From an uncultured virus (IMG/VR IMGVR_UViG_3300038303_000074) (taxonomy: Duplodnaviria > Heunggongvirae > Uroviricota > Caudoviricetes): a stretch of DNA of 20,000 nucleotides. The notes beneath the pieces are model-generated. The model was given only the letters and a program-made list of their open reading frames with translations, was not told where the DNA came from and ran no database searches. Location: the IMG/VR virus record IMGVR_UViG_3300038303_000074; one strand, written 5' to 3'. Position numbers and translations under genes: made by a program. This document shows positions 3,530-18,658 of this stretch, piece after piece. Within the stretch, counting starts at the first letter, position 1. The number at the start of each line of letters is the position of its first letter.

Positions 3530-3541
3530 CTCAGGTCCCTT

Positions 3542-4198
3542 TCATTTCAACATCTCCCGCCGCACCCTGTCGATCACGTCGCCAGCGCGGTGGCGCTTCC
3601 ACTCCTCGAACGCATTCTGATCGCTCGCCGGGTACGCCACGCCATTGAAGACGCGTGCGGTGTTTTCATCCTCGGGCGCGTTGCCGAGCAGATGGTGGTG
3701 GTACTCGAACTTGACGCCCGGGCGGTAGCACCGGACGCCCAGCTCCTTGACCAGCAGTTCCCAGTAATCATCCACGAACCAGTGGATCAGGGTGCGGGGC
3801 ACCCAGTAGCCTATAGCTCTGAGCAGCTTGCCCCCGAACACCACACCGCCAGCGACACGATGGCCATGCTTCCAGCCGTCGTCCCCCCAGGCGATGCCCC
3901 AGTCACCGGCAGCCTCGATCAGGGTCTGGTCCCAGCCCTGCGTCACAGGGCGGCAGCCATCCGTCAGGAAGCCGTAGTATGGTCGATCAGGGGATGTGTC
4001 GAAACAGTGGTTCATGGTCTGGGCCAGCTCACGGTGCGGCTCAAGGTTCCAGGTCGACCAGTTGTCTGGCTCGATCAGGACGAGTTCGTCGCCGCCGTCG
4101 TTCACAGCGACAGCGGGGGCGGTCATGCCGGTGGCTTCGCAGTGTTCGACAGTCTGCCGGGCTGCACCGATCCGGTTGCGGGTTATAAGAAAAAACAT
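3542..4198 (-). CDS. Glycosyltransferase family 2 (GT-A fold)-like protein
   Basis: Motifs VNDGG, YGFLTDGCRPVTQGWD, IAWGDDG, HWFVDD and EYHHH resemble phage GT2-like proteins. Confidence 0.65.
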   Translation of the reverse strand: MFFLITRNRIGAARQTVEHCEATGMTAPAVAVNDGGDELVLIEPDNWSTWNLEPHRELAQTMNHCFDTSPDRPYYGFLTDGCRPVTQGWDQTLIEAAGDWGIAWGDDGWKHGHRVAGGVVFGGKLLRAIGYWVPRTLIHWFVDDYWELLVKELGVRCYRPGVKFEYHHHLLGNAPEDENTARVFNGVAYPASDQNAFEEWKRHRAGDVIDRVRREMLK

Positions 4199-4216
4199 CA
4201 GGGCTCCCGGTTAATA

Positions 4217-4264
4217 TTGCTTGTAAACAAGAGCACCGTATCGTATAGCTTGTGCATACACAAG
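4217..4264 (+). promoter_or_regulatory. Putative sigma70 promoter plus 16-bp inverted-repeat operator upstream of HTH gene
   Basis: Candidate promoters TTGCTT-16-TATCGT (4217-4244) or TTGTAA-17-TATAGC (4221-4249). Inverted repeat CTTGTG-CATA-CACAAG at 4249-4264 abuts the RBS AAGGAG. Confidence 0.5.
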
Positions 4265-4274
4265 GAGAAATTTA

Positions 4275-4559
4275 ATGGGTATCAAAAAAGAGTTGATCGC
4301 CGAGATCGACGCCTTCCTGAAATACTACGAGATCGCCCCGACATCGTTCGGTCGCGACTGCATGAACAACACCGCGTTCATGGAGCGCCTGCGCAACGTG
4401 GATGGCCGTGTCACCGACGCCACCATCGACAAGGTGCGGGCGTACATCAAGAAGCACGACGACAAGGACGACGCAGCCAAGCCCGTGGAGATCGCCCGGC
4501 GTGCAGGTCCACCTACCCCTGCCCGGCGCAAGGGTTCGAGCTGGAGGGCTGCCGTGTGA
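4275..4559 (+). CDS. Small HTH (Cro/XRE-like) transcriptional regulator
   Basis: The pattern IDAFL...IAPTSFGR..MNN..F..RLR...T..T.DKVRAYI is typical of small alphaproteobacterial phage HTH proteins; strong RBS. Confidence 0.7.
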   Translation: MGIKKELIAEIDAFLKYYEIAPTSFGRDCMNNTAFMERLRNVDGRVTDATIDKVRAYIKKHDDKDDAAKPVEIARRAGPPTPARRKGSSWRAAV

Positions 4560-4840
4560 GTACGTTAAAAGATTTCGACGAGACCTTCGAGACGATCACC
4601 CAGGACCGCGGCGTAGACTACGGCCACCCGCTGGACGACTTCGCCATCGCAGCCGCTATCAAGGAGGCGGTGGCGTCCTGCCCGGACAAGGAAGTCCGGC
4701 ACGCGCTGGAAATGATCGGGGTCAAAATGGCCAGGCTCTGCAAAACGCCGACCCACCCGGACAGCGTCATTGATATTGCAGGCTATGCCCGCACCATCCC
4801 CATGATACACGACGAGCGAGCACGGCGTAAGTTGCTTTGA
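4556..4840 (+). CDS. DUF6378-like (nucleotide-modification-associated, all-alpha) protein
   Basis: GTG at 4556 overlaps the upstream TGA; RBS GGAGG at 4543. Motif DRGxDYGHP.DDF...M..VKMAR...H.DS.IDIAGY. Confidence 0.75.
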   Translation: MSTLKDFDETFETITQDRGVDYGHPLDDFAIAAAIKEAVASCPDKEVRHALEMIGVKMARLCKTPTHPDSVIDIAGYARTIPMIHDERARRKLL

Positions 4841-4852
4841 CAAAGGTGACGT

Positions 4853-6937
4853 TCATTTCTTGTACCTCTTGCCGTGCCAGAGCTCGACCTCAAGCGGCAG
4901 GCCGGGGGCCCATAGCGGCACGTCTTTCATGACGTCCTCAAGGGTGCCCCAGGCATCGCCGACTTCAGCGTCGAGAACCTCCAGCAATATTTCATCGTGG
5001 ACGTGACCAACGATGGGCCAGTCCAGCTCGTCCATCATGCGCAGCCCGCGCTTGAGGATCGACGCCGACACTGCCTGCGTGTTGTTCTCGGCCAGCAGCC
5101 CGCCGTAGAGCTGGACCCTGCCCCACTCAGTCTCGCCGCGCTTGGGTTTCCAGCCAGCTTTGACAGCTGTCAGCCGGTCCTGAAAGCCCCAGCGGCCCTC
5201 GACCGTCTCGATCCGGGGCTTGGGGTACGACAGCACCTGCCCGCTCGGCAACATGCAGTACAGGGCCTGCATGTTCTCGGGGCACATGTATGTCACGAAC
5301 CCCACCTTGTAGCTCTTGCCGGGGTTCGATACCGCGTTGGTGGCAGCGAAGTCGAGGTCGGCCCAGTAGTCCACGGCCCACGGGTTCGACGCACGCCATG
5401 CCTTTTTGATCTTGTCGGCCTCACTGTCTTCAATGTGGACCCCGTAATTTCTCGCCATGGACTGGAAGGCCTTGACGCCACCCTGGTAGCCCATGGACAG
5501 CACGGTGACCTTGCCGATCTGGCGCTCCGGCTTTGTGATCGCATCGGCCGGAACGTTATAGATGCCTGAAGCGGCCACCATATAGACGTCAGGCCGGGCG
5601 GGGTTCTCGTCCACGTCCTTGAAGACCTTGAGCATCTTGCGCCCGCCTGCACTGTCGGTCAGCCACGGCAGCACCCGGGCCTCAATGCCAGCCCAGTCAC
5701 TGCAGACGTAGGAGTATCCCTCCTGAGCGATCAGGGAGGGCCTGAGCATGGACGCCAGCGTGTTCATAACCTCGCCTTCAGCGATCGGCGTGTGGGCCAT
5801 CAGGGAGGCCCTGAGGACCTCTGGCTCCTTCGAGCAGTCTCTGGTGAAGTTGTGTACCTGAAGGCCTTGAGACGAAGCCCTGAGCGTCTGGCCAGCCCCT
5901 GCGAAGCTGAACGCACCCCGTACGCGATCGTCGTCAGGGTCAGAGCGCAGGCACATGGCCTTGTACTTGGAGATCGATGACCGCCCGGCATCCTCCAGCA
6001 GCTGCACAAACTCAAGGCAGATCGGTGCGATCCGCCCGGGGCTCATAGTCTCCAGCTTCAGGATGTCAGCCCGTGCGGTCTTGTCGAGGGTGATCTTGCG
6101 GGTCTCTTCACGGGTCTGGCGATCGGTGGTGACGCGGGTCATGGCCTTGCGGATGTCGTCGTCGCCGTCCATGTAGATTTCCATCCACTCTTTATGGCGG
6201 GCGAACTGGCGGGGGCTGTCGATCTGGCCGTTGGTAATGCGGTTCAGCTCGACGCTGATCTCATAGACCTCGGCGTCGGCGTACTTGATGGCCGCCTCGG
6301 CGAACTCGCGATCCACCTTGAGGCCGCGGTCGTTGATGCGCTCGTTGACGATATAGTCCTGCCACTCCTCGTCGGTCAGGGGCGGGGTCATCTTGGCAGC
6401 GGTGCGCTCGACGATGACGTCGGTGTCACAGTAGCGGTACATCTCCTCCAGCAGGTCGGGGTCCATGTTGAAGACGCCGGTGTCCAGATCGGGCGGCCCG
6501 GGTATGGAGAGCAGCTTGATCAGCTCCTTGCCGCGGCGGTCTTTCTGGGTCCGCAGTCCGAGGCAGGCACCTAGATCGTCGAGGCCACCAGGCAGTGCGC
6601 GGGCACGGGCCTGCGCCATGGTGCAGTAGAACATTTCGAGCGGCGGCTCGGGCACGTCGTAGTCAGGGCAGACCACATACCAGAAGATCACCCGCTCGAA
6701 CGCTGCGTTGTGAGCGTGTATGCTGCGATCGTGACCGGCTTTGATATGGTCGATGATAACCTGGGGGAACGGCTCACCGCTGAGCGGGTTCCAGCTGGTC
6801 GGCTTGTCGTCGCCGAAGCCGTAGCTCAAACAGATCAGGCTGGTGGAGGGGTGGACAGCGTAGTTGTACGCGCCTTCCTTGATCAGGTTGACCCGGCTCC
6901 GGGTCTCGAAGTCGATGTGCAGTTCAGGTATCTGCAT
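4853..6937 (-). CDS. polA: Phage DNA polymerase, family A, with 3'-5' exonuclease domain
   Basis: Start MQIPELHIDFETRS at 6937 with RBS GGAGG. Exo motifs DFETRS, AHNAAFE and YCDTDV; polymerase motif A DWAGIEARV, motif B RQIGKVTVLSMGYQGG, motif C HVHDEI. Confidence 0.95.
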   Translation of the reverse strand: MQIPELHIDFETRSRVNLIKEGAYNYAVHPSTSLICLSYGFGDDKPTSWNPLSGEPFPQVIIDHIKAGHDRSIHAHNAAFERVIFWYVVCPDYDVPEPPLEMFYCTMAQARARALPGGLDDLGACLGLRTQKDRRGKELIKLLSIPGPPDLDTGVFNMDPDLLEEMYRYCDTDVIVERTAAKMTPPLTDEEWQDYIVNERINDRGLKVDREFAEAAIKYADAEVYEISVELNRITNGQIDSPRQFARHKEWMEIYMDGDDDIRKAMTRVTTDRQTREETRKITLDKTARADILKLETMSPGRIAPICLEFVQLLEDAGRSSISKYKAMCLRSDPDDDRVRGAFSFAGAGQTLRASSQGLQVHNFTRDCSKEPEVLRASLMAHTPIAEGEVMNTLASMLRPSLIAQEGYSYVCSDWAGIEARVLPWLTDSAGGRKMLKVFKDVDENPARPDVYMVAASGIYNVPADAITKPERQIGKVTVLSMGYQGGVKAFQSMARNYGVHIEDSEADKIKKAWRASNPWAVDYWADLDFAATNAVSNPGKSYKVGFVTYMCPENMQALYCMLPSGQVLSYPKPRIETVEGRWGFQDRLTAVKAGWKPKRGETEWGRVQLYGGLLAENNTQAVSASILKRGLRMMDELDWPIVGHVHDEILLEVLDAEVGDAWGTLEDVMKDVPLWAPGLPLEVELWHGKRYKK

Positions 6938-6938
6938 G

Positions 6939-7562
6939 TTATAAATCCTCCCACTGCTTAGCCAGACGCTCCGCGTTCTCTGCGGTGCGCTCGGCTTTAA
7001 GCTCTTCGATCCTGCCAGCGATCTGCTGCTCGTCGTCAAGGTAGCCCCAGGTCTTGCGGTTAATGATGGGACTGAGGTTCCCTTTCGACATTGGGTAAAC
7101 CTCTATTATGTCCGCGTAGCTATCACCAAGTTTGCGACGCGCGCGCATGTCAATGATGTCGGTCTCTTCATAGACGCGGTTACCCAACCTGTGGTTTCCG
7201 TGCCGCACTTTATCCGCAGCGTTCTCGGCGGCAGTCGCCCAGCGCAGGTTGGTGTAGTGGTTGTTCGAGGGGTTCCCGTCGTAGTGGGCGCACTGGTGAT
7301 CGTCGGAAGGTTTCGGCCCTACGAAAGCGTGGAGCACCAGAGTATGCGCCTGAACGGTTTTCGACGGTGCGTTGCGCCCCGCCATACCGGCGTCACGCAG
7401 TTTATATTTAACATACCCCTGGGGGTCGGAAGTCCCCGTCATAATTTTTCCGGCAGGGTACCTGTACGAACCGTCCAGGAGCTGGTAGCGGTCAACGAGG
7501 CTGCGTAGCTGGCCATATTCGGACACCTCGTACTCAGGGTGAATGCTCTGTCTCCACTCCAT
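6939..7562 (-). CDS. Free-standing NUMOD4-HNH homing endonuclease
   Basis: ATG at 7562 overlaps the MTase TAA (TAATG). NUMOD4 motif WR.....YEVS.YGQLRS; HNH motif HTLVLHAFVGPKP...CAHYDGNPSNNHYTNLRWAT.AEN; C-terminal HTH-like part. Confidence 0.9.
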   Translation of the reverse strand: MEWRQSIHPEYEVSEYGQLRSLVDRYQLLDGSYRYPAGKIMTGTSDPQGYVKYKLRDAGMAGRNAPSKTVQAHTLVLHAFVGPKPSDDHQCAHYDGNPSNNHYTNLRWATAAENAADKVRHGNHRLGNRVYEETDIIDMRARRKLGDSYADIIEVYPMSKGNLSPIINRKTWGYLDDEQQIAGRIEELKAERTAENAERLAKQWEDL

Positions 7563-8182
7563 TACAAGTCTCCCCATTGATCGGCCATAGCATCCGCCAG
7601 GCCCTGATAAGTTATCGACCGCAACATTTGACGATCTTCTGACGGCGGCAGGTAGTGCAGCCGCTGTTGAATGTTCTTGGGCAGTGCATCTGTCTCGGTC
7701 TTGACGTTGTTCGTCGGCACCAACGGCGGCAGGTTCTTGAGCCACAGGCAAGTTGCCTTCTTTTCCATGTGACCGAACATCCACGGTTGGACTACCTGCG
7801 TCTGCTTGACGCCGATTAGTTCCTTGGCATAGCCGTGCATCACAGGATTTTCGACGCAGATTTTATCAGCAGGTGCGTTGAGCATCGCTTCAAAGAACCG
7901 GGCACCGTCCACCATGTCAGCCCAACGCTTGACGTTGACGCCGTTCTCTTTGCGTTTGTCCTTGTACAAGTGGCAAACCCCGGAGTTTGAAAGATAAGTG
8001 CAGGGCGGGTGCGCGATTATTAAGTCCCACTTATGCCGGTCCAAGTGATCAAGAACATCCCCTTGAATGTGGTATTCTGGATCATCACTTGGTAGAATAT
8101 CACACGACCAGGCAACATGCCCTTTGGCCCTGAACGCATCGCGCACGACGCCGGAAAATTCACATGCGACGAGGACCCTCAC
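7562..8182 (-). CDS. Short DNA cytosine-C5 methyltransferase-like protein
   Basis: GTG start. VLVACEFSG (variant motif I), SCD, DLIIAHPPC (catalytic PC) and ENPV; only 206 aa with no obvious large TRD. Confidence 0.8.
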   Translation of the reverse strand: MRVLVACEFSGVVRDAFRAKGHVAWSCDILPSDDPEYHIQGDVLDHLDRHKWDLIIAHPPCTYLSNSGVCHLYKDKRKENGVNVKRWADMVDGARFFEAMLNAPADKICVENPVMHGYAKELIGVKQTQVVQPWMFGHMEKKATCLWLKNLPPLVPTNNVKTETDALPKNIQQRLHYLPPSEDRQMLRSITYQGLADAMADQWGDL

Positions 8183-8436
8183 TTGTCGTACTCCGCGCCG
8201 ACCCCGTCGAGCACGCTCTCCAGGTACTTGATGCGGGCGTGGTCTGCGGTCGCGGAAGTTTCAATCTCCTGCTCGATCTCTTCATCGCTGTTCACTTCAC
8301 TGTCGCGCAGGAACTGTATCTCGGCCAGCACGTCATGCAACCACGGCAGTTTCTTGGCCGTCGTCATCTCCATGCGGAACAGATCGTTATCGCTAGGGGT
8401 GCGACGACCCCGTAAATTATAGTTGAGTGTTGTCAT
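8179..8436 (-). CDS. Hypothetical protein (85 aa, acidic)
   Basis: ATG 8436 preceded by GGGAAGG; stop overlaps the MTase GTG start. Confidence 0.6.
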   Translation of the reverse strand: MTTLNYNLRGRRTPSDNDLFRMEMTTAKKLPWLHDVLAEIQFLRDSEVNSDEEIEQEIETSATADHARIKYLESVLDGVGAEYDK

Positions 8437-8465
8437 AGCAAAAACCTTCCCGGTTAAAGTTAGTG

Positions 8466-8645
8466 CGTGGTGACGGCTCAGCGTCCAGCCGCTAAGCCAT
8501 AGCCATGCCGCCACCACGTTTCGGAGAGGCCGCGGCCTAACTGGGATCAAGGGCGCTTCTGTTTCAAAGCGCCACCAGTACCGCGACGGCTCCTATCCGG
8601 TCGAGCGGGGTACCTCAGCCCCGAAGGGCTCAGCTCGCCCGACCG
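8466..8645 (-). ncRNA. Candidate structured RNA (or ssDNA) element with three stem-loop domains
   Basis: Minus strand: CGGTCGGGCG/CGCTCGACCG enclosing AGCCC-TTCG-GGGCT; GTCGCGGT/GCCGCGGC plus ACTGG/CCAGT plus GGCGCTT/AAGCGCC; CGTGGTGGCGG/CCGTCACCACG enclosing CTTAGCG/CGCTGAG. The imperfect pairs are G-U on the minus strand. Confidence 0.55.
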
Positions 8646-8652
8646 AGGTCTC

Positions 8653-9459
8653 TTATGCCGCGCCGCGACGACGGCGGCGACCACCAGCAGCTTCTGCCGG
8701 AGCAGCTTCTGCCGGAGCAGCTTCTTCTGCCGGGGCAGCTTCAGCAACTTCTTCCGCCGGAGCAGTTTCAACAGGTGCTGCCTCCGCCGGAGCAGCCTCA
8801 GCAACCGCAGCCCTGCCTGCAGGTTTGGCATCGGCAGGGGGTGCTGCGATCGCACCTTTGACTGCACTCAGCAAACCGTTCTGGAGGTCCGCCCAGTCCA
8901 CAATCTTGAAGATCGGCGTGTACTGTTTGCCGTACTGCTTGTGGGTGTAGCTGTCACTTTCCAACACGACGATCGGAACCGGGTGCTGGTGTGACGGGCG
9001 GTTCTTGACTTCCTTGCGGACTTCATTGTACGCATTGATGCCGCCCTTGGAGGAGGCGTAGTATGCAGTCTGCACACCCACGTCTTCGCCGTTCAGGCAG
9101 ACCATCGGGAAACCAACCTGGGTCGTCCACGGAAAGTCGGGGTTACCATACGGAGGGGCAGGCTTGTTAGCCGGACCCATGGTCTCACCGAGTTTCGTAC
9201 CGGCCTGAGGCGAACCATCTTTACCCCAGGCAACCCAACCATGAGCGAGCTCAAAAATATTGATCGCCCAGTTGCTGTTTTCCTGTACTTCAACGTTGTC
9301 CGCACCGTAGACCCAGATGCCGTCCTTACCCATACGCATATAGGTTTCGCCGGACGTGCTGGTCGGGGCGTGCGCATCACCTTCAGCCATTGCGGCGTCA
9401 AGGTCTTCTACGGAGTTCACCGCTGCCGAGGCAGCGAAGTTCGCGATATCAGTACTCAT
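8653..9459 (-). CDS. Putative phage single-stranded DNA-binding protein with Ala/Glu/Pro repeat tail
   Basis: Motifs G.WVYG, HGWVAW, SSKGG and PVPIV.L.SDSY.HKQYGK.YTPIF.IVDW; located between the DUF2800 nuclease and polA; RBS AAGGAG. Confidence 0.7.
   Translation of the reverse strand: MSTDIANFAASAAVNSVEDLDAAMAEGDAHAPTSTSGETYMRMGKDGIWVYGADNVEVQENSNWAINIFELAHGWVAWGKDGSPQAGTKLGETMGPANKPAPPYGNPDFPWTTQVGFPMVCLNGEDVGVQTAYYASSKGGINAYNEVRKEVKNRPSHQHPVPIVVLESDSYTHKQYGKQYTPIFKIVDWADLQNGLLSAVKGAIAAPPADAKPAGRAAVAEAAPAEAAPVETAPAEEVAEAAPAEEAAPAEAAPAEAAGGRRRRRGAA
8686..8800. repeat. Imperfect ~15-bp coding tandem repeat (AGCAGCTTCTGCCGG) encoding (APAEA)n
   Basis: Directly visible at 8686-8715, with degenerate copies to about 8800; encodes the low-complexity tail of the SSB-like protein. 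Confidence 0.8.
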
Positions 9460-9523
9460 TCGTCATCTCCTTCTTCAAAGTTAACCGTAACCTCAAGCTA
9501 ATCTTTCGGTTTTCTGCTTAACT

Positions 9524-10780
9524 TTAACCTTCGTCTTCATTCGTAACTTCAACCTTAGGCAGGCCGAGATCATCGTCTGCCGCTACCACGCTGAGCGCCG
9601 CCCGAGGGTCTGACGTCCGCGCCATGGTCGTGCCTGACGAGTGTCCAGTGGACAGATCGTCTACCACGCCAATCTCTTTGCCGTCCACTCTGACGGTCGC
9701 TTTAATACCCTTGGATTTTAGCAGCTTTTCGGCTGCAGCGGGAGTGATAAAGGTCGTTATTTCGAGCTCTTTCACCTTAACTTTCAGCGCCCGCAGCCGC
9801 CGCTTGGCCTCGACCTCGTCATCCCACTGGCGAGTCTTGCGCTTGTCCACCAGCTTCCAGCCGTCGACGTTGAAGCCTTCCTCCAGCTGCTGGTGCGCGA
9901 AGCTTTGCACCGCCTTGCACCACGGCCCGATCGCGTCGGCCATCTCCAACAGGGTGGGCAGGTCATAGTCGTTGCCTGCCTTGTAGTTGACGACTTCAAG
10001 GTCGCCCGTCGTCACCGGCAGGCCGAGGTCCATCACAGCGATGGCTGCGTTCTTCTGGGTCGGACAGACCGCAGACGCAGGGCACCAGCGGCAATGGTCA
10101 CCGGTCTCGCTGTCGGGGTTTTCTGTGGCGCTGTTGGCCAGCGCGTCTTCGAGGTCCAGCTGCAGGCCGTCAAGGTCGTCGCGGGTGATCTCGTGCGAGG
10201 TCCACGGCGTGTCCATGGCTGGCTGCACGATGGCGATCAGGATGCGGCGCTTGCCGTTACCTTCCTCGAACAGTTCGGCAAAGCCGGGGGTCTTGCGAGC
10301 CGCACCGGCGTAATACATTAGCTGAGTGTTTCCGTCGCCCGCCGATCCGGCAGCGGATACTGGCACGCCGCGCCCGAACTTCCAGTCGAGGATGACAACC
10401 CACTCGTCGTTCCAGCCAATGATGTCTGCCGTACCGAAACAACCTTCAAGGGCTCCGGGCCACGCGACCCGTTCTTCAATATCGATATCCATAGCACCGA
10501 CCATACGGCAGACGTCGTCGAAGCAGTCAAGCGCTGGCTTGAAGAGTTCATTCATCAGCTCCTCGGTGAGAGTGTGGCCTTCGAACTCGTAGCCGATCAT
10601 CTGGTCGAGCGGCGTGTCCTCAAGCAGGTGCTTGGCCATAGCCTCGTGCAGCATGGTGCCTTCAGCTGCGAATTTAGAAGACGGTTTCTTCGGCACCGTG
10701 CTCTTGAGCTTCACGCTGAGCGGACAGGCGATAGCACGTTCGCTCTCGCTGCCGCCGATGACGTCGGAATGTTCTGACAT
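9524..10780 (-). CDS. DUF2800 family Cas4-like PD-(D/E)xK exonuclease
   Basis: HS..GGS...R...CP.S, EGTMLHE, FGTADII, DWKFG, QLMYYA and CRWCPA...CP (1+3 Cys pattern of Fe-S Cas4-like nucleases). Confidence 0.9.
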   Translation of the reverse strand: MSEHSDVIGGSESERAIACPLSVKLKSTVPKKPSSKFAAEGTMLHEAMAKHLLEDTPLDQMIGYEFEGHTLTEELMNELFKPALDCFDDVCRMVGAMDIDIEERVAWPGALEGCFGTADIIGWNDEWVVILDWKFGRGVPVSAAGSAGDGNTQLMYYAGAARKTPGFAELFEEGNGKRRILIAIVQPAMDTPWTSHEITRDDLDGLQLDLEDALANSATENPDSETGDHCRWCPASAVCPTQKNAAIAVMDLGLPVTTGDLEVVNYKAGNDYDLPTLLEMADAIGPWCKAVQSFAHQQLEEGFNVDGWKLVDKRKTRQWDDEVEAKRRLRALKVKVKELEITTFITPAAAEKLLKSKGIKATVRVDGKEIGVVDDLSTGHSSGTTMARTSDPRAALSVVAADDDLGLPKVEVTNEDEG

Positions 10781-10783
10781 TAG

Positions 10784-11566: not shown

Positions 11567-11598
11567 TCATAAATTTCTCCTCAGGTCTCAAAATTGTC

Positions 11599-11661
11599 TT
11601 GACGCAAACTTTGCTCATGCGCTAGTGTGCATTAATATACCGACTTGTTCCAAAGCGTCAA
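11599..11661. promoter_or_regulatory. Overlapping divergent sigma70-like promoters with an internal operator-like site
   Basis: Plus strand TTGACG(11599)-18-TAGTGT; minus strand TTGACG(11661)-16-TATATT. Near-palindrome TTTGCTCATGCGCTAG at 11610-11625. Confidence 0.6.
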
Positions 11662-11675
11662 CAGGAAAATGACCA

Positions 11676-11996
11676 ATGCTTGAAAAAACTCTCGAAAAGA
11701 AATGCGGCGCTGCAGCAAAGAAGGCTGGAGCCCTGTTCTATAAGTGGAGCTCACCCTCTGTGCGCGGCGTGCCGGATCGCATCCTGATCAAGGAGGGTGG
11801 CGAGGTCATCTTCATTGAGATGAAGCGGCCGGGGGCCAAGGCCACCAAGCTGCAGCAATCACACATAAAGCAGATCAACCTCCGCGGCGGGTCCGCCTGC
11901 GTCATAGACGACTACGACGCATTCCTCCGCCTGCTGGAAGACCCCTTCAAACAGTTCGACTTCGAGACCCGCGCCCGTGCGCTGGATGGTCAGTGA
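11676..11996 (+). CDS. VRR-NUC domain nuclease
   Basis: E..LEK....A...G...YKW.SP..RGVPDRI......FIEMKRPG...T.LQ. Confidence 0.9.
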   Translation: MLEKTLEKKCGAAAKKAGALFYKWSSPSVRGVPDRILIKEGGEVIFIEMKRPGAKATKLQQSHIKQINLRGGSACVIDDYDAFLRLLEDPFKQFDFETRARALDGQ

Positions 11997-11999
11997 CCG

Positions 12000-12350
12000 A
12001 TGCCCAGCTCTGCCGGAGCCTCGCACATCGCCCCTCGGGCGGAGACGCTACGCAACATGGCGTTCTCGGCGATCGCGCGCAGCCAGTTTCACGGTATGAC
12101 TGCTGACGAGGTGGCGCGTGCGCTGGGCGAGACGGTACTGGCGATCCGCCCCCGCATCACCGAGCTTAAGAAAGCCGGGGCTGTTGTCTGCTCCGGCGGG
12201 AAGCGCCCGAACATCAGCGGCGTGTCTGCTGACGTCATGGTCATCATTAAATACCTGCCTCCAAAAACGCGGCGCGGCCAGTGCTATCGCAGCGCCGGTC
12301 GGCGTGGCGTGCGCAGGCGGACAGGAGCACCCCATGCACAAAAAATCTGA
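12000..12350 (+). CDS. Winged-HTH DNA-binding protein
   Basis: GMTADEVA..LG...LAIRPRITEL.K.G.V..SG.KR.N.SG..A.V; same frame as VRR-NUC, with only TGA-CCG between them. Confidence 0.7.
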   Translation: MPSSAGASHIAPRAETLRNMAFSAIARSQFHGMTADEVARALGETVLAIRPRITELKKAGAVVCSGGKRPNISGVSADVMVIIKYLPPKTRRGQCYRSAGRRGVRRRTGAPHAQKI

Positions 12351-13971
12351 TCTCGACCCTGCCCAGAACATCGTCATCGACCACATGTTCGAGCACGACC
12401 ACACCCTGGCCCTCGTCCCCATGGGCGGCGGCAAGACTGTCTGCAGCGCGACTGCCGCGGTCGAGCTCAACGCCACCGGCTTCACCAGTCGCTGGCTGAT
12501 CCTCGGGACCAAGCGCATCTGCGAGCTGGTCTGGCCGAAGGAGTTCCCGGGTTGGGAGCACCTGCAGGGTCAGACGTGGGCTGTGGCCTGTGGCACGCCG
12601 AAGCAGCGCAGTGCTGCCATCGAGAGCGATGCCACCTTCGTGTTCCTTAACTATGAAAACGTGGCATGGTTCATCAAGACGTACAACGGCGTCTATAACT
12701 TCGATGCCTTGATCATCGACGAGCTGACGAAGCTGAAGTCGTCCAGCGGCAAGGGCTACAAGGCCATCAACCGGCACCTGACCAAGTTCAAGGTCCGCAT
12801 CGGCATGACCGGACTGTTCACACCCAACGGCATCAAGGATGTTTTCGGGCAGGTCATGTGCGTGGACAAGGGTGCGTCACTCGGTCGCACCAAGGAAGCC
12901 TTCAAGAACCGCTTCTTCCAGAGCACCGGCCCGATGCCGTGGCAGGAGGAGCCGGTCGAGGGTGCGCTTGAAAAAATTATCGAGGCCATCGCACCGATCA
13001 CCGTGCAGATGCCGGACAGCGCCTACGTGGACAGCCTGCCGCCCCTGATCCCGAACAACATCGTGGTAGCATTACCAGCAAAAGCAAGAAAGCTGTACGA
13101 AGAGCTGGAGGACGAGTATTGCTCATTAGGCGGAGGTGACGGAGGCCTCCAGGACGCCACAGATTTGCTGCAAAATTTTTCAACTTTTTCTGACTTGGCT
13201 CCGGCGCATCTTGTTGAAGATGCCGTCGAGCCGCTGGTCAGACTTTACGAAGACATGTTGGCTGATGGCGCTTTAAACCTGGAGAACACTGGCGCGGTCT
13301 CCGACATGCTCGACGAATTTCCAGAGATGGGCTTTCACGCCTCGCAAGCACTCAACACCATCCGCGAAGCCTTCGACGCCATCCTCGACGAGAACCTGCA
13401 GATGATCGCCAACGGCGGGGTGCTGGTCGGCAAGCTGCAGGAGATCGCCAACGGCTTCTTATATAATGGCCAGCCGAAGAAGGGTTTCGACCTCGTGCAT
13501 GAGCAGAAGCTGGACGCGCTGGACGAGCTGATCAGCAGTCTGCATGGTTCACCCCTGCTGGTAGCCTACAAGTTCAACGCCGAGTTCGAGCTGCTGCAGG
13601 AGCGCTTTCCGGCACCGCACCTCGGGTCAGGTATCAACGCGAAGCAGGCAGCGGAGACTGAGCGCGCATGGAATAACTCCGAACTCCCCCTGATGTACGT
13701 TCACCCTGCATCGGCCGGTCACGGACTGAACCTGCAGTACGGTACCTGCCAGACAATATGCTGGTACGCCATGACGTGGTCGCTGGAAGAATACGACCAG
13801 CTGACCGCACGCATCCGGCGGCGGGGCCAGACCGCCTCACAAATTCGCGCGCACCACCTGGTGTGCAACGACACTGTCGATGAAGACCTGCTACAGGCCG
13901 TAGCTGACAAAGCGGATGTGGAGAGTGCCGTTCAAGGCGGCATTCGCATGCGTAATTTAAAACGAAAATAA
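12334..13971 (+). CDS. SNF2-like (SF2) phage helicase
   Basis: Start 12334 after AGGAG. Walker A MGGGKT, IIDE, GMTG, HPASAGHGLNLQ and ARIRRRGQ. Confidence 0.92.
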   Translation: MHKKSDLDPAQNIVIDHMFEHDHTLALVPMGGGKTVCSATAAVELNATGFTSRWLILGTKRICELVWPKEFPGWEHLQGQTWAVACGTPKQRSAAIESDATFVFLNYENVAWFIKTYNGVYNFDALIIDELTKLKSSSGKGYKAINRHLTKFKVRIGMTGLFTPNGIKDVFGQVMCVDKGASLGRTKEAFKNRFFQSTGPMPWQEEPVEGALEKIIEAIAPITVQMPDSAYVDSLPPLIPNNIVVALPAKARKLYEELEDEYCSLGGGDGGLQDATDLLQNFSTFSDLAPAHLVEDAVEPLVRLYEDMLADGALNLENTGAVSDMLDEFPEMGFHASQALNTIREAFDAILDENLQMIANGGVLVGKLQEIANGFLYNGQPKKGFDLVHEQKLDALDELISSLHGSPLLVAYKFNAEFELLQERFPAPHLGSGINAKQAAETERAWNNSELPLMYVHPASAGHGLNLQYGTCQTICWYAMTWSLEEYDQLTARIRRRGQTASQIRAHHLVCNDTVDEDLLQAVADKADVESAVQGGIRMRNLKRK

Positions 13972-13973
13972 AA

Positions 13974-14003
13974 CTTGCGCATGAGCAAGATGCGTGTCAA
14001 TGT
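13974..14003 (+). promoter_or_regulatory. Operator-like near-palindrome overlapping a putative promoter for the accessory gene run
   Basis: CTTGCGCATGAGCAAG (13974-13989); candidate promoter TTGCGC-17-CAATGT; shares a 12-bp core with 11611-11622 in inverted orientation. Confidence 0.5.
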
Positions 14004-14031
14004 AAATTCGCAACAAAGAAAGGTTACCGAG

Positions 14032-14652
14032 ATGTCAAAAACGAAGGAGCTCAAGATGCAGCCCGCGCCGCGGTCGATGTTCGAGGTCACCTTCCGGTCG
14101 CAGCTGCTACCGCTCGACGCCGATGAGTACCTGGACGACCTCGCGGTAGCGTCAGGCCGACTGGTCGGAGGGCCGCTTTTAACAGTGGCGTCGAGAGAGC
14201 CGAAGCGGCTGTCAAACTACGAGGCCCACCTTAAATTCGAGCGCGAAGCTAAAGAGCTTCGCAAACGTGAACTCGACGCTGCGACCAGAGCTCGCGCGGC
14301 CAGCGCCGCAACCAGCGTCAAGGTCCGTAACTACGTCGCCTACATGGAGGAGCGGGGCTACCGGCCCAGCCACATCAAGGCGCAGCTTAAACTTATGTTC
14401 GACGGGTATGACCCCTTCGAGGAGTTCGATATTGCAGCGGCGAAACGCCACGTAGAAGCCGTGGAAGCCCGAGCTAGAGAGGCTCAGCGCGTAGCAGAAG
14501 AGGCGCGCAGGCGTCGGCCTTCCGTAGAGCAGACCGACAGGGCTGCGCGCCTGGCTGCCCGACGTGTTGCATCCGACGCGCAAATCAAACTTAACAATGA
14601 CTACGTAGAAGACGCTCTGGCCAAAATGAGAGCAGGAACCTGGCGTGACTGA
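14032..14652 (+). CDS. Hypothetical protein, Arg/Ala/Glu-rich helical
   Basis: ATG 14032 with RBS GAAAGG; long open frame. Confidence 0.65.
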   Translation: MSKTKELKMQPAPRSMFEVTFRSQLLPLDADEYLDDLAVASGRLVGGPLLTVASREPKRLSNYEAHLKFEREAKELRKRELDAATRARAASAATSVKVRNYVAYMEERGYRPSHIKAQLKLMFDGYDPFEEFDIAAAKRHVEAVEARAREAQRVAEEARRRRPSVEQTDRAARLAARRVASDAQIKLNNDYVEDALAKMRAGTWRD

Positions 14653-14679
14653 CATTAAAAAGAGAAATGGAGAAGATTG

Positions 14680-15000
14680 ATGGCACAGATACCAAAAGCA
14701 GAACTTGAAATGTTGCGGCGCAACAACGCCGTGCTCGTCAACCTGGCTACGATGGTAGACAGCGGGGCGCAGGTGCGGATCAAAGAGCTCGACCAGCGCC
14801 TTAAAGATCGCGCCGACGCCCACGCCGAGACCAAGGCCTCGCGCAAGATGTGGACTGAACGTGCCAGCGAGCTAGGCGACAAGGTCGACATGCTCGAAGC
14901 CTGCCTCACCGAAATCCGCGACGTCGCAGCTGTCAGCGAGGGTGTGGAATTTTACGTCATGCTCGCTCAGCAGGGACTTGACGGGGAGTTCAAGCGATGA
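14680..15000 (+). CDS. Hypothetical coiled-coil protein
   Basis: RBS GGAG; stop overlaps the next ATG. Confidence 0.65.
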   Translation: MAQIPKAELEMLRRNNAVLVNLATMVDSGAQVRIKELDQRLKDRADAHAETKASRKMWTERASELGDKVDMLEACLTEIRDVAAVSEGVEFYVMLAQQGLDGEFKR

Positions 15001-15185
15001 CCCCCGGAATGACCGACCTCGTCAAACGGCTGCGCGCTTACGGCCCCACGTCAGAGGCCTGGGAGGCAGCCACGGCCATCGAGCACCTGGACAGAAAACT
15101 GGCCTGGGAGAGAGACAGCCACGCCCACACCAAACGCCTGTACAATGACGTGCTGGCAAGCCGACCAAAAAGGAATGACCTGTGA
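14997..15185 (+). CDS. Hypothetical protein (TDLVKRLR...EAA.AIE.L phage motif)
   Basis: Coupled to both neighbours by ATGA/GTGA overlaps; RBS GGGGAG. Confidence 0.65.
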   Translation: MTPGMTDLVKRLRAYGPTSEAWEAATAIEHLDRKLAWERDSHAHTKRLYNDVLASRPKRNDL

Positions 15186-15511
15186 AAGATATATCCGACG
15201 AGACCGCCACTGTGCTGGAACACTTCCAGCGCCAGTCGCGCAGCGAGGCGGCCATTGCCGTCGATGCCTTTAACACTATCGTGCGCCGGTTCGTCTGGCT
15301 GCAGGAAGAGCTGACCAGGCTGGAAGACCAGCTGGACAGCAGCATCGAGATCGCCCCGCCCATGTGCAAGGAGCGGTTCATGCAGGAGGGCCTCCTGCGG
15401 GCGGTGGTCGCGGGCGGCCACGCCAACGGCGACAACGTCAGAATGCTCGACCGGATGCACGACCTTATCAACGGCGTGCTCAACGGATCGATCGTGCCTG
15501 AAGATGAATAG
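15182..15511 (+). CDS. Hypothetical protein
   Basis: GTG start overlapping the upstream stop; GC3-rich codons. Confidence 0.6.
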   Translation: MKDISDETATVLEHFQRQSRSEAAIAVDAFNTIVRRFVWLQEELTRLEDQLDSSIEIAPPMCKERFMQEGLLRAVVAGGHANGDNVRMLDRMHDLINGVLNGSIVPEDE

Positions 15512-15845
15512 GTCGCTCAAAGTCTTTCTGCGCGGGTACTTGTGGTTCGACGTAAACGGCGAGTACTTCCTGGTCTACCAACATGCCAAGGATCGCCGCA
15601 AGTTGCTGTCCGAGTATGATGGTGACATCGACTTCCAGGGCTTCCACATATTCAAAGGCTGGTTGGGCTTCTACTCGCGCTCGTCGAGCTTCTTTTTCAT
15701 AGACCCGGACGAGCCGACACACTGCACCTGTGACGAGAAGGATCACGGCACGACCGAATGCCCGTACTCCTCTGACATCCACAATCTGGTCGTGGGCTGC
15801 AACTGCTGTCCTTACTGCCAGCAACAATGCGCGGACGAAGTATGA
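15504..15845 (+). CDS. Hypothetical protein with Cys-rich C-terminal (putative Zn-binding) domain
   Basis: CTC...CPY..DI.....CNCCPYCQQQCADEV. Confidence 0.65.
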   Translation: MNRSLKVFLRGYLWFDVNGEYFLVYQHAKDRRKLLSEYDGDIDFQGFHIFKGWLGFYSRSSSFFFIDPDEPTHCTCDEKDHGTTECPYSSDIHNLVVGCNCCPYCQQQCADEV

Positions 15846-15943
15846 CCCCCGGCAACCCCAAGCCGGGTAGACTGACCGTCAGTGGCCTCGTGATCCGATT
15901 GGACCCGGCACCTGCGACACTGGCGGTTCTTTTTTATGGAGAT

Positions 15944-16366
15944 TGAATGATGATTGACCAGAAAGCATTGGAAGCTGCTTATGAAGTCCTGCTTGATAAC
16001 TCTGACTTCAATATGTTCCCCGGTTTTGAGAAAGCCATCGAAGCATACGAGGCCGCAAAGCCACAGCCAGACATCAAAGAGTTATGGGCGTGTATCAGTG
16101 TTCTGTACGATGCCGCGTGTAGCTATAACCGCATTATGGATGCTGTTGGGACTACAGTTCCCATGTTGACGATGGACAGCAAAACATCCCCGCAAACTAT
16201 TGCGATAGCCAGAGACAAGCTGTCTGCATTTATAACTGGCACCGATGGGGAATGAATTATGATTAACCAGAAAGCATTGGAAGCTGCTGTTGAGGCCATG
16301 CGTGACTGCCACGCGCCCGACGCTTGTGCTGCTGTGGCAGTAGCCATCACAGCCTACGAGGCCGCA
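15944..16366 (+). repeat. Direct repeat pair at 309-bp offset (duplicated gene 5' ends)
   Basis: 15944-15979 vs 16253-16288 match at 34/36; 16034-16057 vs 16343-16366 match at 21/24. Confidence 0.9.
15947..16255 (+). CDS. Hypothetical protein; N-terminus paralogous to next ORF
   Basis: RBS GGAG; MIDQKALEAA...AIEAYEAA. Confidence 0.65.
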   Translation: MMIDQKALEAAYEVLLDNSDFNMFPGFEKAIEAYEAAKPQPDIKELWACISVLYDAACSYNRIMDAVGTTVPMLTMDSKTSPQTIAIARDKLSAFITGTDGE

Positions 16367-16588
16367 CTGTGGCAACCAATTGAGACGTTGGAATACAGCG
16401 ACGATCCGGTTATTGGTGAAAGTGAAAAAGTGCTCTTGGTCGATGATGCCGGAAGGGTTTGGGTTGGTAGTCTCATGTATGCGATCGGTAAAGGTCTCCT
16501 GTCATGGGGTTGGAACAACAAGCCTACCCACTGGATGCCGCTACCAGAGCCGCCGTCCCTTAAATCCACGGAAGGCGGCACGACATGA
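16259..16588 (+). CDS. DUF551-like domain protein
   Basis: WQPIET...VLL...PTHWMPLPEPP. Confidence 0.75.
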   Translation: MINQKALEAAVEAMRDCHAPDACAAVAVAITAYEAALWQPIETLEYSDDPVIGESEKVLLVDDAGRVWVGSLMYAIGKGLLSWGWNNKPTHWMPLPEPPSLKSTEGGTT

Positions 16589-16836
16589 GTTATCCAGCTA
16601 GTTGTCAGAACCCACGTTGTCGAGAAACCACACAACTGGAAGACCCACGCAGTCGTTGGTGGTGCGATGAGCCGATATTTGTTGCCGCCGATATTGTTGG
16701 TGAACGGACCGTTTTCAATATCGGCGGCAACAAATATCGGCTCGTCGCCTTAATAGATTATGAACTGCACGGTGTCTTAATCAGGTTTGTAGGAACCCAC
16801 AAGGAGTATGACAGAATAGACGTAGCGACGACTTAA
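16585..16836 (+). CDS. higB: Chimeric ORF: Cys-containing N-terminus fused to C-terminal half of a HigB (RelE-superfamily) toxin
   Basis: ADIVGERTVFNIGGNKYRLVALIDY...IRFVGTHKEYDRID is the classic HigB C-terminal half; the normal HigB N-terminal helices are absent. Confidence 0.75.
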   Translation: MSYPASCQNPRCRETTQLEDPRSRWWCDEPIFVAADIVGERTVFNIGGNKYRLVALIDYELHGVLIRFVGTHKEYDRIDVATT

Positions 16837-16874
16837 GCGATAAACACGTATTTATACACTCAAGGCGATAAACC

Positions 16875-17273
16875 ATGAAAACTGTAACCGTACCCGTTAT
16901 TAAAACCGACAAGGACCACGCAGCGGCTGTGAAGCAAATCGAGAGACTTTGGGGTGCCAAGTCCAGTTCCAAAGATGGGCAAACCCTCGATGTTCTCCTG
17001 ACCCTCGTGGATGCTTACGAAACCAAACACTTCCCGATAGACACACCCGACCCGTTAGAAGCGATCCTGTTCCGCATGGACCAGCAAGGCTACGGCCGTC
17101 GCGACCTGGTGCCAGACAAAGAGGCGCTGGAGATTGTGCTTGTTGCTGCTGAAAGTTTTATCACAATTATTGAGGATTACCCGCAAGAGGCAGACGCAGT
17201 GGCTAAATACAAAGCCGCCATTGCAAAACTGTATGCCGAAATCATAGACACACTTGATCAAGTGTCTACTTAG
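16875..17273 (+). CDS. higA: Chimeric ORF: HigA antitoxin N-terminal region, truncated within the HTH and fused to an unrelated helical tail
   Basis: IKTDKDHAAA...LDVL.TLVDAYE.KHFPI..PDPLEAI.FRMDQQG...RDLVP matches HigA. The expected continuation (IGSR.RVSEVL..KR.L) is missing. Confidence 0.75.
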   Translation: MKTVTVPVIKTDKDHAAAVKQIERLWGAKSSSKDGQTLDVLLTLVDAYETKHFPIDTPDPLEAILFRMDQQGYGRRDLVPDKEALEIVLVAAESFITIIEDYPQEADAVAKYKAAIAKLYAEIIDTLDQVST

Positions 17274-17290
17274 ACCAGCGAGGCGTAAAC

Positions 17291-17434
17291 ATGGCAAACG
17301 TACCCGAGACACAAACCAGAGTGGCACAGCTTGAGCGCAAGGTTGAGCTTATGGAAGAACGGCTAAAGAAACTTGAACTGGATAAATGGCCAGAGCCATG
17401 CAAATGTATTGGCTGTAGGCCGGACCTTTACTAA
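17291..17434 (+). CDS. Small hypothetical protein (47 aa; coiled coil plus CxCxxC), not in ORF track
   Basis: MANVPETQTRVAQLERKVELMEERLKKLELDKWPEPCKCIGCRPDLY; RBS GAGG; TAATG overlap with the next gene. Confidence 0.6.
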   Translation: MANVPETQTRVAQLERKVELMEERLKKLELDKWPEPCKCIGCRPDLY

Positions 17435-17631
17435 TGGACACAACAGGCGAGGCCGTGAACCTGATTATTGAGTTATGTAATATGCCGCGAGAACTACACC
17501 CGGCAGCAGAGCAAGTGCTTCGTGACGCCATCGCAGGCCATGCTACCGTGACCGAGTTTCGACAAATGTTTCACCTGTTTAATTCCGACTACCTGCAATA
17601 CGTCAGATGTGTTGCTCAATATTTAACCTGA
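17434..17631 (+). CDS. Hypothetical protein
   Basis: Translationally coupled 65-aa ORF. Confidence 0.55.
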   Translation: MDTTGEAVNLIIELCNMPRELHPAAEQVLRDAIAGHATVTEFRQMFHLFNSDYLQYVRCVAQYLT

Positions 17632-17642
17632 GGAGACCTGAG

Positions 17643-17882
17643 ATGGGAGCTTACCACAATGCACTGCGCGAGGAAGGCACGCGCGACGACCTGATGGAGG
17701 CGCTGGAGAAGGCGTGGACCGAGATCGAAGAGCTGCGCGCGCAGCGAGAGAACCAAGCCGCCCGCATGAGCATGATGACGTCGGTGGACCCGGGGGCACT
17801 GCAGTTCGTGATCGGCTACCTGCAAGACAACCCTTCACCCTTCGTGCAGAAAGTAATTAAAATACTTAAAGGGGAGACCTGA
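17643..17882 (+). CDS. Hypothetical protein
   Basis: ATG 17643 after GAGGAGACCTGAG; GC3-rich codons. Confidence 0.65.
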   Translation: MGAYHNALREEGTRDDLMEALEKAWTEIEELRAQRENQAARMSMMTSVDPGALQFVIGYLQDNPSPFVQKVIKILKGET

Positions 17883-17883
17883 G

Positions 17884-18616: not shown

Positions 18617-18658
18617 AATAGAAAACGCCCCGAGACCTGAGGATACCGGGGCGCTTTC
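18616..18658 (-). terminator. Intrinsic terminator (possibly bidirectional)
   Basis: Minus strand CGCCCCG-14 nt-CGGGGCG followed by TTTTCTATTT; the plus-strand tail (CTTTCATT) is weaker. Confidence 0.65.

What the first reader, a model, noticed from the sequence alone, without database searches (positions are those of the whole stretch)
3530..17883. Recurrent motif GAGACCTGAG at translation starts
Seen at 3530-3539(-) (GGGACCTGAG-ATG), 11578-11589(-) (GAGACCTGAGGA), 17626-17642(+) (ACCTGAGGAGACCTGAG-ATG, tandem) and 17874-17883(+) (GAGACCTGAG-ATG), plus the 18632-18643 hairpin loop. Weaker variants occur at about 14021-14031 (AGGTTACCGAG-ATG) and 8643-8652(-) (GAGACCTCGG). In three cases the motif abuts the ATG, so it is more than a Shine-Dalgarno. 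Inference: an RNA-level control site. Alternatively it is a short homology used for shuffling gene cassettes.
Basis: seen in the sequence. Interest (0 to 1): 0.7.

Follow-up and report, generated by a model that had tools for sequence, protein, structure and literature searches.

The report
Phage small RNA matching ribosome sites
A marine phage marks the ribosome-landing sites of seven non-structural genes with two private sequence tags and carries, between two genes, what looks like a small RNA gene whose hairpin loops are the mirror image of both tags, which suggests, from sequence alone and not yet by experiment, one RNA that switches this gene set off.

Summary
The motif is real. GAGACCTGAG occurs 4 times exactly in the 42.4-kb phage contig (about 0.1 expected), and 3 of 50 gene starts share its last 7 bases (P=0.0004). 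The two 'weak variants' are chance. Repeated leader words alone are common in phages. The clue is the ATG-less copy at 18632. A second leader word (TTAACCGGGA; genes 4198-, 8436-, 18780+) has its only ATG-less copy 40 bases away. Read on the minus strand, 18720-18612 looks like a ~109-nt RNA. It has a promoter-like site, three hairpins (z -4.0 against -0.8 on the plus strand) and a U-tailed terminator. Two loops plus their 3' arms are complementary to the two words, and predicted binding singles out 8 of 49 leaders. Best reading (0.6): a trans-acting antisense RNA that blocks translation of early genes, working like P1 c4 or AbcR1/2 but not in any Rfam family. No expression data and no homologue for covariation were found, so duplicated-leader relics beside a two-way terminator remain possible. 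Cassette shuffling through this word was not supported. Unchecked notes of this scan describe the same layout in other phages.

The parts
18612..18720 (-). Candidate ~109-nt antisense small RNA with three hairpins; ends inferred from promoter-like site and U-tract
   Evidence: MFE -43.2, z -4.0, 0 of 200 shuffles; plus strand -32.9, z -0.79. Best 109-nt window of 16,902 for 9-nt complements to leaders
18727..18756 (-). Promoter-like site for the candidate RNA (TTG-type -35 at 18756-18751, 18-nt spacer, -10 at 18732-18727)
   Evidence: 1 of 18 TTG-N3-(16-18)-TA-N3-T sites in the contig; 8 of 12 consensus bases, below the cut-off of the scanner
18724..18752 (+). Overlapping divergent promoter-like site (TTGACA, 17 nt, -10) for the 18780 / primase / helicase operon
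18703..18718 (-). SL1, 5' hairpin with C-rich loop (generic anti-SD); on the plus strand the same stem plus a T-run scores as a terminator
   Evidence: predicted -6.9 kcal/mol with the 18446 leader
18664..18698 (-). SL2; loop UCCC plus 3' arm = seed B (18684-18673), complement of the TTAACCGGGA leaders; 3 of the 6 upper pairs are G-U
18616..18658 (-). SL3 / terminator with U-tract; loop CUCA plus 3' arm = seed D (18643-18632), complement of the reported motif
   Evidence: 3 of the 4 plus-strand mismatches in the stem are A-C, i.e. G-U pairs on the minus strand
11578..11589 (-). Target word 1 overlapping the SD of the 260-aa first gene (11566) of the leftward replication operon; 12-nt match
   Evidence: -13.4 kcal/mol
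17626..17642 (+). Tandem target word 1: stop of gene 17434-17631, then SD and spacer of gene 17643; right edge of a low-GC foreign block
   Evidence: -8.1
17874..17883 (+). Target word 1: stop of gene 17643-17882 and spacer of gene 17884
   Evidence: -9.2
3530..3539 (-). Target word 1 with one A-to-G change that becomes a G-U pair with the seed; leader of the 269-aa gene 3529
   Evidence: -8.2
8446..8457 (-). Target word 2 in the leader of the 85-aa gene 8436
   Evidence: -8.9
4204..4214 (-). Target word 2 in the leader of the glycosyltransferase-like gene 4198
   Evidence: -4.1
18763..18772 (+). Target word 2 in the leader of gene 18780, first gene of the primase operon
   Evidence: -5.5
18430..18438 (+). 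Possible SL1 target, G-rich SD of the 56-aa gene 18446
   Evidence: -6.9; generic SD match, weakest claim

Best explanation
The motif is one of two phage-private address words in the ribosome-binding regions of seven non-structural genes, and they are read by one phage-encoded trans-acting antisense RNA (18720-18612, minus strand). SHOWN in sequence: the two words; their single ATG-less copies 40 bases apart; a minus-strand three-hairpin fold with a U-tail; a promoter-like site; and complementarity that starts in two 4-nt loops and runs down G-U-weakened 3' arms. INFERRED: host sigma-70-type RNA polymerase makes the RNA leftward. A loop first pairs with the G-rich SD part of a leader, the arm is invaded to give 9-12 bp, and 30S loading is blocked. 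This would silence together the first genes of the leftward replication operon (11566), the primase operon (18780) and the 4198-3529 operon, plus 8436, 17643 and 17884. SPECULATIVE: the RNA's promoter overlaps the divergent primase-operon promoter, and the 3' end of the rightward early transcript is its full antisense. The pair could form a switch or timer, either an early-gene shut-off or a dormant state.
For: (1) Among 16,902 109-nt windows on both strands, only the 12 overlapping windows at this locus have 9-nt complements to 6 of 49 leaders; the next best have 4. (2) Two seeds that each hit 3 or more leaders: 0 of 20,000 dinucleotide shuffles; one such seed 0.0076, the relevant figure for the second word, which was not part of the original finding. 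(3) Strand asymmetry: z -4.0 vs -0.79; 7 of 38 minus-strand pairs are G-U vs 1 of 30 on plus; 4th best of 774 strand-windows and 2nd most minus-favoured of 387. (4) Terminator stronger on minus (-18.9, tail 4.79) than on plus (-14.6, tail 3.92), although no leftward gene was set or called to its right. (5) A promoter-like site at the right place, 1 of 18 in the contig. (6) Accessibility-corrected binding gives 8 of 49 leaders at -4.1 to -13.4 kcal/mol, then a gap to -1.5; the plus-strand control has 0 of 49 at -5 or better. (7) Differences between locus and targets are G-U-compatible: 3529 site, first base of all three word-2 sites. (8) Few off-targets: seed D 7 sites (4 leaders, the locus itself, 2 coding); seed B 6 sites (3 leaders, the locus, 2 other). 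(9) Targets lie on both strands over 15 kb, whereas shared leaders in comparators are mostly neighbours (13 of 15 pairs within 3 genes). None of 66 comparator loci has orphan copies of two words together.
Against: No expression data and no homologue of the locus (blastn against 349 loci, 3.3 Mb: self only), so no covariation. The segment, its ends and the leader list were chosen after seeing the motif; one search is framed on the candidate. At K=8 a coding window scores higher (11 vs 10). Three of 66 comparator loci also reach 6 leaders in a mostly non-coding window, though with scattered matches. The mirror-strand energy control did not discriminate: true orientation better in 8 of 9, but non-targets show the same bias. 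SL3 begins a few bases after the stop of plus-strand gene 18446-18616, where an ordinary terminator would sit. The -10 box partly follows from the overlapping plus-strand -35. Opening the seeds costs 2.8-6.1 kcal/mol. 11 of 66 comparators have a 9-mer in 3 or more leaders, and none of them shows such an RNA in the part fetched. A 45-codon minus-strand ORF starts at 18694.
Confidence: 0.6

Rival explanations
1. Copy-by-descent without regulation. Leader words were spread by local duplication or micro-homologous recombination as small genes came and went. The 18617-18779 gap holds relic leaders of lost genes inside an ordinary two-way terminator region.
For: In 66 non-redundant comparator loci (1,611 called starts), identical pre-start 9-mers form 15 pairs against 0.45 expected; 8 are adjacent against 1.5 expected, and none shares an N-terminus. 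Gene 17643-17882 is flanked by a 14-nt direct repeat. The word supplies stop, SD and start in one junction, as in unrelated viruses (31 of 66 contexts have a long frame ending at its TGA against 12% background). A low-GC block ends at the tandem copy (change point 17614-17684).
Against: It does not explain why both orphans lie in loop-plus-arm positions of a fold that forms only on the minus strand, nor the leftward promoter-like site and U-tail, nor copies on both strands 15 kb apart. The donor-type blocks lack the word at the junction. No joint between copies was listed.
Confidence: 0.22
2. The words are binding sites for a phage translational repressor protein (RegA-like; recalled), and the plus-strand 3' end of the early operon (18617-18725) is a same-sense decoy.
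For: All copies are in sense orientation at SD sites. The plus strand has a terminator-like hairpin at 18702-18719, so this stretch is probably transcribed rightward, and word 1 lies in a plus-strand loop.
Against: The plus strand folds no better than shuffles (z -0.79). Two different words would need one protein. No candidate RNA-binding protein was named by PHROGs or Pfam among the ORFs scanned, although many have no family.
Confidence: 0.08
3. Convergence and chance: strong SD plus stop-start coupling in a GC-rich host, noticed after the fact.
For: The 14-mer is a common single-copy gene junction in unrelated viruses. The 7-nt core is not enriched genome-wide (7 observed, 5-9 expected).
Against: P=0.0004 for three identical spacers; ACCTGAG precedes 0 of 1,611 comparator starts; two-seed shuffle result.
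Confidence: 0.07
4. DNA-level operator or stoperator bound by a phage repressor.
For: Asymmetric, oriented with transcription, at gene boundaries, like the L5 stoperators that PMC3203893 mentions. A small Cro-like ORF at 4275 (my recalled resemblance; no family hit).
Against: Only 5-6 copies of 10 bp, locked to SD position rather than to promoters. Separate operator-like palindromes lie over the promoters. No integrase or resolvase family match in the contig (contig probably incomplete).
Confidence: 0.03

Closest known systems
c4 antisense RNA of phages P1/P7 (Rfam RF01695; PMC12197685 section 9 passage; PMC2864571 table row)
   Same: Phage-encoded RNA with loop-displayed sequences complementary to the ribosome-binding region of a phage mRNA, blocking translation.
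   Different: c4 targets the ant (antirepressor) mRNA; this candidate matches 7-8 unlinked leaders with two seeds. No Rfam match. Own promoter and terminator are inferred here; RNase P processing of c4 is recalled and was not tested.
Start Associated Sequences (SAS) of cluster K mycobacteriophages and Microbacterium cluster EF phages (PMC3203893, PMC7302621; passages)
   Same: Asymmetric, sense-oriented word at the RBS of non-structural genes, conserved beyond the bases that pair with 16S rRNA; reader unknown there.
   Different: SAS: 13 bp, 10-19 copies, conserved across a cluster, 3-7 bp before the start, often with ESAS repeats. Here: two words of 10-12 nt, 3-5 copies each, no cross-phage conservation shown, and a candidate complementary RNA.
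AbcR1/AbcR2 and NfeR1 sRNAs of Sinorhizobium (PMC8844928, passages)
   Same: ~110-120-nt alphaproteobacterial sRNA with several independent anti-SD motifs, one in a 5' hairpin loop, silencing many mRNAs.
   Different: Host-encoded, with generic C-rich seeds and transport targets. Here the seeds extend into phage-private words, one seed is in the terminator loop, and there is no sequence-family match.
PeSL cassettes of T4-type phages RB49/phi1 (PMC2839356, passages)
   Same: Repeated intergenic sequence ending in SD and ATG in a variable gene region; the model for the shuffling rival.
   Different: PeSLs are ~100 bp with promoter and stem-loop and were shown to recombine. Here the shared stretch is 10-14 nt with no promoter or stem-loop per copy, and no exchange at it was seen.

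Membership tests
c4 antisense RNA (RF01695) | Match to the Rfam covariance model | tested here: not met
   cmscan of 43.6 kb at E up to 5: 3 weak hits far below gathering scores, none c4, none over 18612-18720
c4 antisense RNA (RF01695) | Loop-displayed complement to a phage RBS | tested here: met
   Predicted only: loops UCCC and CUCA start the two seeds
c4 antisense RNA (RF01695) | Target is the antirepressor (ant) mRNA | tested here: inconclusive
   No target ORF was named an antirepressor, but most have no family
SAS (cluster K / EF) | Asymmetric word, one orientation, at RBS of non-structural genes, conserved beyond SD pairing | tested here: met
   none in the leaders set for the structural-side ORFs
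SAS (cluster K / EF) | 10-19 copies of a 13-bp word per genome | tested here: not met
   4 exact plus 1 wobble copy and a tandem half-copy of word 1; 4 copies of word 2 in 42.4 kb; part of the genome may be missing
SAS (cluster K / EF) | Conserved across related phages | tested here: inconclusive
   0 copies of G[AG]GACCTGAG in 79 helicase-relative loci and 0 in 42 loci of gene-3529 homologues, but all are only 24-51% identical in protein apart from one 81% match over 21 residues; no close relative found
AbcR/NfeR-type anti-SD sRNA | Sequence-family match | tested here: not met
AbcR/NfeR-type anti-SD sRNA | Several independent anti-SD seeds in a ~110-nt RNA | tested here: met
   Predicted: SL1, SL2 and SL3 seeds hit different leaders
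Trans-acting sRNA (general) | Transcript detected; seed-dependent repression | not testable with these tools
   needs RNA data or reporter assays
PeSL cassette | ~100-bp repeated promoter + stem-loop + SD unit | tested here: not met
   no such family among the repeats listed; shared stretch 10-14 nt
PeSL cassette | Gene gain or loss by exchange between copies | tested here: inconclusive
   no joint between copies in 4 of 24 runs, contigs only, low depth; donor-type block lacks the word
Hammerhead ribozyme | CUGANGA core, stem II, GAAA | tested here: not met
   descriptor scan printed no site; no Rfam hit

The most novel reading that the evidence does not exclude
Some phages write private address tags into the ribosome-binding sites of chosen early genes and silence the whole tagged set with one multi-loop antisense RNA, here two tags and two loops, made from a promoter interlocked with the replication-operon promoter. 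That would be an RNA-based master switch of the early programme and a testable answer to what reads SAS-type repeats.
Probability: 0.45. Interest if true: 0.82.

Novelty: new variant of a known kind. Interest (0 to 1): 0.64.

Why it matters
The phage antisense RNAs with phage targets that I read about (c4, sar, OOP, aQ; PMC12197685, parts 1-2 of 6 and one passage) mostly act on one transcript. What reads SAS-type RBS repeats was left open in PMC3203893 and PMC7302621. A single RNA addressing 7-8 leaders through two private words would show regulon-scale translational control inside a phage. It also gives a simple screen for other genomes: look for the ATG-less copy of a repeated leader word and read the other strand. 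The claim is cheap to test with reporters, without culturing the phage. Four full-text searches listed no paper whose title or abstract start describes such a multi-target phage RNA; the library lacks most subscription papers, so this does not show absence from print.

Tried and rejected
No RNA holder listed among 24 runs; this says nothing about expression. Laying 4 of the 24 runs (contigs only; tables cut) showed no joint between motif copies, and one record over 18490-18671 had no difference. Searches for close relatives gave only a near-identical IMG/VR contig. GenBank phages gave a polymerase at 38% at best in the rows shown, and no match for genes 3529, 17884 or 11566. Gene 18780 has no homologue by sequence. 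The closest primase relatives with DNA (50-55%) sit behind integrase-like genes in two alphaproteobacterial MAGs, where neither the polymerase nor the helicase query found a match. Rfam gave nothing. The hammerhead idea, prompted by note e1-8120214 and the CTGAGGA look, was rejected. The mirror-orientation energy control was uninformative. The candidate 'third seed' against the start of gene 18228 (8 nt) did not survive the accessibility correction (not among the 11 leaders with negative energy). The tandem 16-mer occurs in 13 IMG/VR stretches in mixed contexts; I have no background count, so it is not used. In five comparator loci with private words every copy precedes an ATG; those loci are 11-21-kb pieces, so an RNA elsewhere in those genomes is not excluded. 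Atlas searches named no function for genes 11566 or 18780. Supplements of the papers were not read; SAS alignments there might show orphan copies.
Full report
SETTING. The window is G000:C1:2090-22089 (minus strand) of a 42,364-bp linear virus record, held in seawater and marine metagenome runs. It differs from G000 by one base. It encodes a PolA-type polymerase, SNF2-type helicase, exonuclease, endonuclease, primase and many small orphan genes; the rest of the contig is mostly tail and ejection genes. CheckV calls the record complete. However, it ends inside a gene, none of the ORFs I scanned was named terminase or portal, and a 70.4-kb contig encodes the identical 18780 protein. So 'genome-wide' below means these 42 kb. 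Primase relatives carry alphaproteobacterial names, which suggests but does not show the host group. No integrase or resolvase family match was found.

OBSERVATION. There are four exact copies of GAGACCTGAG, all in the window, against 0.05 expected. The one-mismatch copy at 3530-3539 and the tandem at 17626-17642 are as described. The word is the top 10-mer under an order-3 model, but 75 10-mers occur four or more times and the 7-nt core is not enriched. Position carries the signal: 3 of 50 hand-set starts share the same seven preceding bases (P=0.0004; two of the 50 starts were mis-set and later calls used 49 leaders). An automatic caller picked the same starts for all seven target genes, and homologues of gene 3529 begin at the same Met. 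The two weak variants are at chance level.

HOW ORDINARY IS A REPEATED LEADER WORD? In the 80 with full flanks, minus the self-match, 36 of 66 distinct contexts are start-like (background 14%), and 31 of 66 have a long frame ending at the motif's TGA (12%). It is a workable stop-SD-start junction. I then called genes in comparator phage loci: 106 loci of at least 10 kb out of 124 fetched, 66 after removing redundancy, with the terminal duplication of L224 trimmed. Among 1,611 starts, identical pre-start 9-mers form 15 pairs against 0.45 expected, 8 of them adjacent genes against 1.5, and 5 of 66 loci have a private word in three or more leaders (11 of 66 by a 9-mer criterion). Private RBS words are thus a general phage trait, probably from local copying (inference). 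This phage's words are absent from 79 helicase-relative loci and from the leaders of 25 homologues of gene 3529, all distant relatives.

SHUFFLING TEST. A block from about 15.9 to 17.6 kb has GC3 0.47-0.56 against 0.68-0.85 in the plus-strand genes beside it, with its right change point at 17614-17684. Other contigs lie on it with joints among the repeated gene starts at 15936/16245 and across the higBA-like insert. Metagenome locus L215 is 88% identical over 17114-17600. Its last gene and that of L216 end Tyr-Leu-Lys-stop, the window's ends Tyr-Leu-Thr-stop, and similarity stops there. The donor-type blocks have no motif at this junction, so the word is resident and the block abuts it; it was not the shared homology. 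No joint between motif copies was listed in 4 of 24 runs (contigs, low depth, cut tables).

THE CLUE. A second word, TTAACCGGGA, ranks second and lies in the leaders of 4198(-), 8436(-) and 18780(+). The only other copy of its core, without ATG, is at 18674, 40 bases from the ATG-less copy of word 1. Read leftward, 18720-18612 folds into three hairpins (z -4.0, 0 of 200 shuffles); the plus strand does not beat shuffles (z -0.79). Seven of 38 pairs are G-U, against 1 of 30 on plus. With the grid framed on it, it ranks 4th of 774 strand-windows. The last hairpin has a better stem and U-tail on minus than on plus, and one of only 18 promoter-like sites in the contig lies just upstream on minus, interlocked with the rightward promoter-like site of the primase operon. 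Both seeds have the same build: a 4-nt loop (UCCC, CUCA) facing the G-rich SD part, then the 3' arm of a G-U-rich upper stem facing the private bases. CUCA fits the YUNR U-turn motif described for antisense systems (PMC6562991, passages); a 4-base match is weak evidence.

STATISTICS OF THE MATCH. At 9 nt the locus is the unique best of 16,902 windows (6 leaders, next 4); at 8 nt it is second (10 against 11 for a coding window). Two seeds each hitting three leaders occurred in 0 of 20,000 shuffles, one seed in 0.76%. With opening costs on both sides, 8 of 49 leaders score -4.1 to -13.4 kcal/mol (the seven word-bearing leaders and 18446 through the 5' loop), the next -1.5; the plus strand gives none at -5. 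The mismatch at 3530 and the first base of all three word-2 sites become G-U pairs. Against: the mirror control was uninformative. Three of 66 comparators reach six leaders in a mostly non-coding window, by scattered matches. Three have one orphan copy, none two together. No homologue of the locus exists in 349 fetched loci, so covariation could not be tested, and there is no expression evidence.

MECHANISM. Most likely (0.6) a trans-acting antisense RNA blocks ribosome loading on a tagged set that includes the first genes of three early operons. The sequence features are shown; transcription, pairing and repression are inferred; the timing (shut-off or dormancy) is speculation. Rivals: relic leaders beside a two-way terminator (0.22), protein repressor with a sense decoy (0.08), chance (0.07), DNA operator (0.03). 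Local copying and RNA control can both hold: copying could supply the tags that the RNA exploits.

COMPARISON. It would work like P1/P7 c4 RNA (PMC12197685: parts 1-2 of 6 and the section 9 passage read) and like AbcR1/2 (PMC8844928, passages), but it matches no Rfam family and is not filed under either. The words resemble SAS (PMC3203893 and PMC7302621, passages) but fail on copy number, and conservation is untested. They are not PeSLs (PMC2839356, passages). PMC2864571 was seen as one table row and one passage. No supplements were read. Searches listed no description of a multi-target phage RNA of this type (titles and abstract starts only). I wrote the antisense idea down. At I then saw unchecked scan notes reporting hairpin loops complementary to private early-gene RBS words in other phages, some claiming covariation; I did not test them and they are not counted as support. 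One related note was later marked as partly fallen.

VERDICT. Observation real in its strong copies. New variant of a known kind, interest 0.64: a specific, cheaply testable RNA-regulon hypothesis resting on one genome.

Noticed in passing
window 12334-13971 (+): The SNF2-type helicase has an ~85-aa acidic insertion (about residues 262-347) absent from 7 of 7 aligned relatives.
   Followed up: no
window 15870-17631: Low-GC mosaic block shared with other marine contigs. Genes 15947 and 16259 share a 61-nt 5' repeat at which contigs join in several ways; L215 has a fused form of genes 16259 and 16875. This longer repeat, not the reported motif, looks like the shuffling site.
   Followed up: partly
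window 16558-17230: higB/higA-like insert (HigB Pfam match), absent in joined contigs, with a 33-bp inverted repeat at 16664-16748 replacing the start of higB; the one base that differs from G000 (16668) lies in it.
   Followed up: partly
window 13974-13989, 11609-11623, 4249-4264: Related near-palindromes overlying divergent promoter-like sites; operator candidates.
   Followed up: no
window 4217-4263, 11599-11661, 18724-18756: Three intergenic gaps hold overlapping back-to-back promoter-like pairs; the sites at 1184(+) and 18724(+) share the 8 bases before the -10 box.
   Followed up: partly
window 8437-8652 (-): Highly structured 216-nt gap (z -3.3 for 8420-8580) with several hairpins and a near-complement of word 2 about 80 nt upstream of the 8436 leader on the same strand; possible second RNA or cis-acting leader.
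   Followed up: partly
window 2153-2261 (+): Unusually stable fold (z about -8 on few shuffles) at the start of a small gene in the lysis region.
   Followed up: no
window 19053-19088: 8-bp inverted repeat inside gene 18780 whose arm is the reverse complement of the motif core.
   Followed up: no
L348 2311-7083; L349 309-3456: The closest primase relatives with DNA (50-55%) lie in satellite-like elements (integrase-like gene, small DNA-binding-type gene, primase; names by my reading of the ORFs) of alphaproteobacterial MAGs.
   Followed up: partly
L231, L263, L150, L196, L147: Other phages carry their own private leader words (up to 10 copies in L231), some with longer shared leader cassettes.
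   Followed up: partly
window 2720-3529 (-): Gene of a large family without Pfam or PHROG match (2,764 representatives at E 0.001 or better) with a conserved His/Arg-rich C-terminal motif.
   Followed up: partly
L200, L206/L207, L203: The same tandem arrangement of the motif core around GGAG precedes ATGs in other viral contigs.
   Followed up: partly
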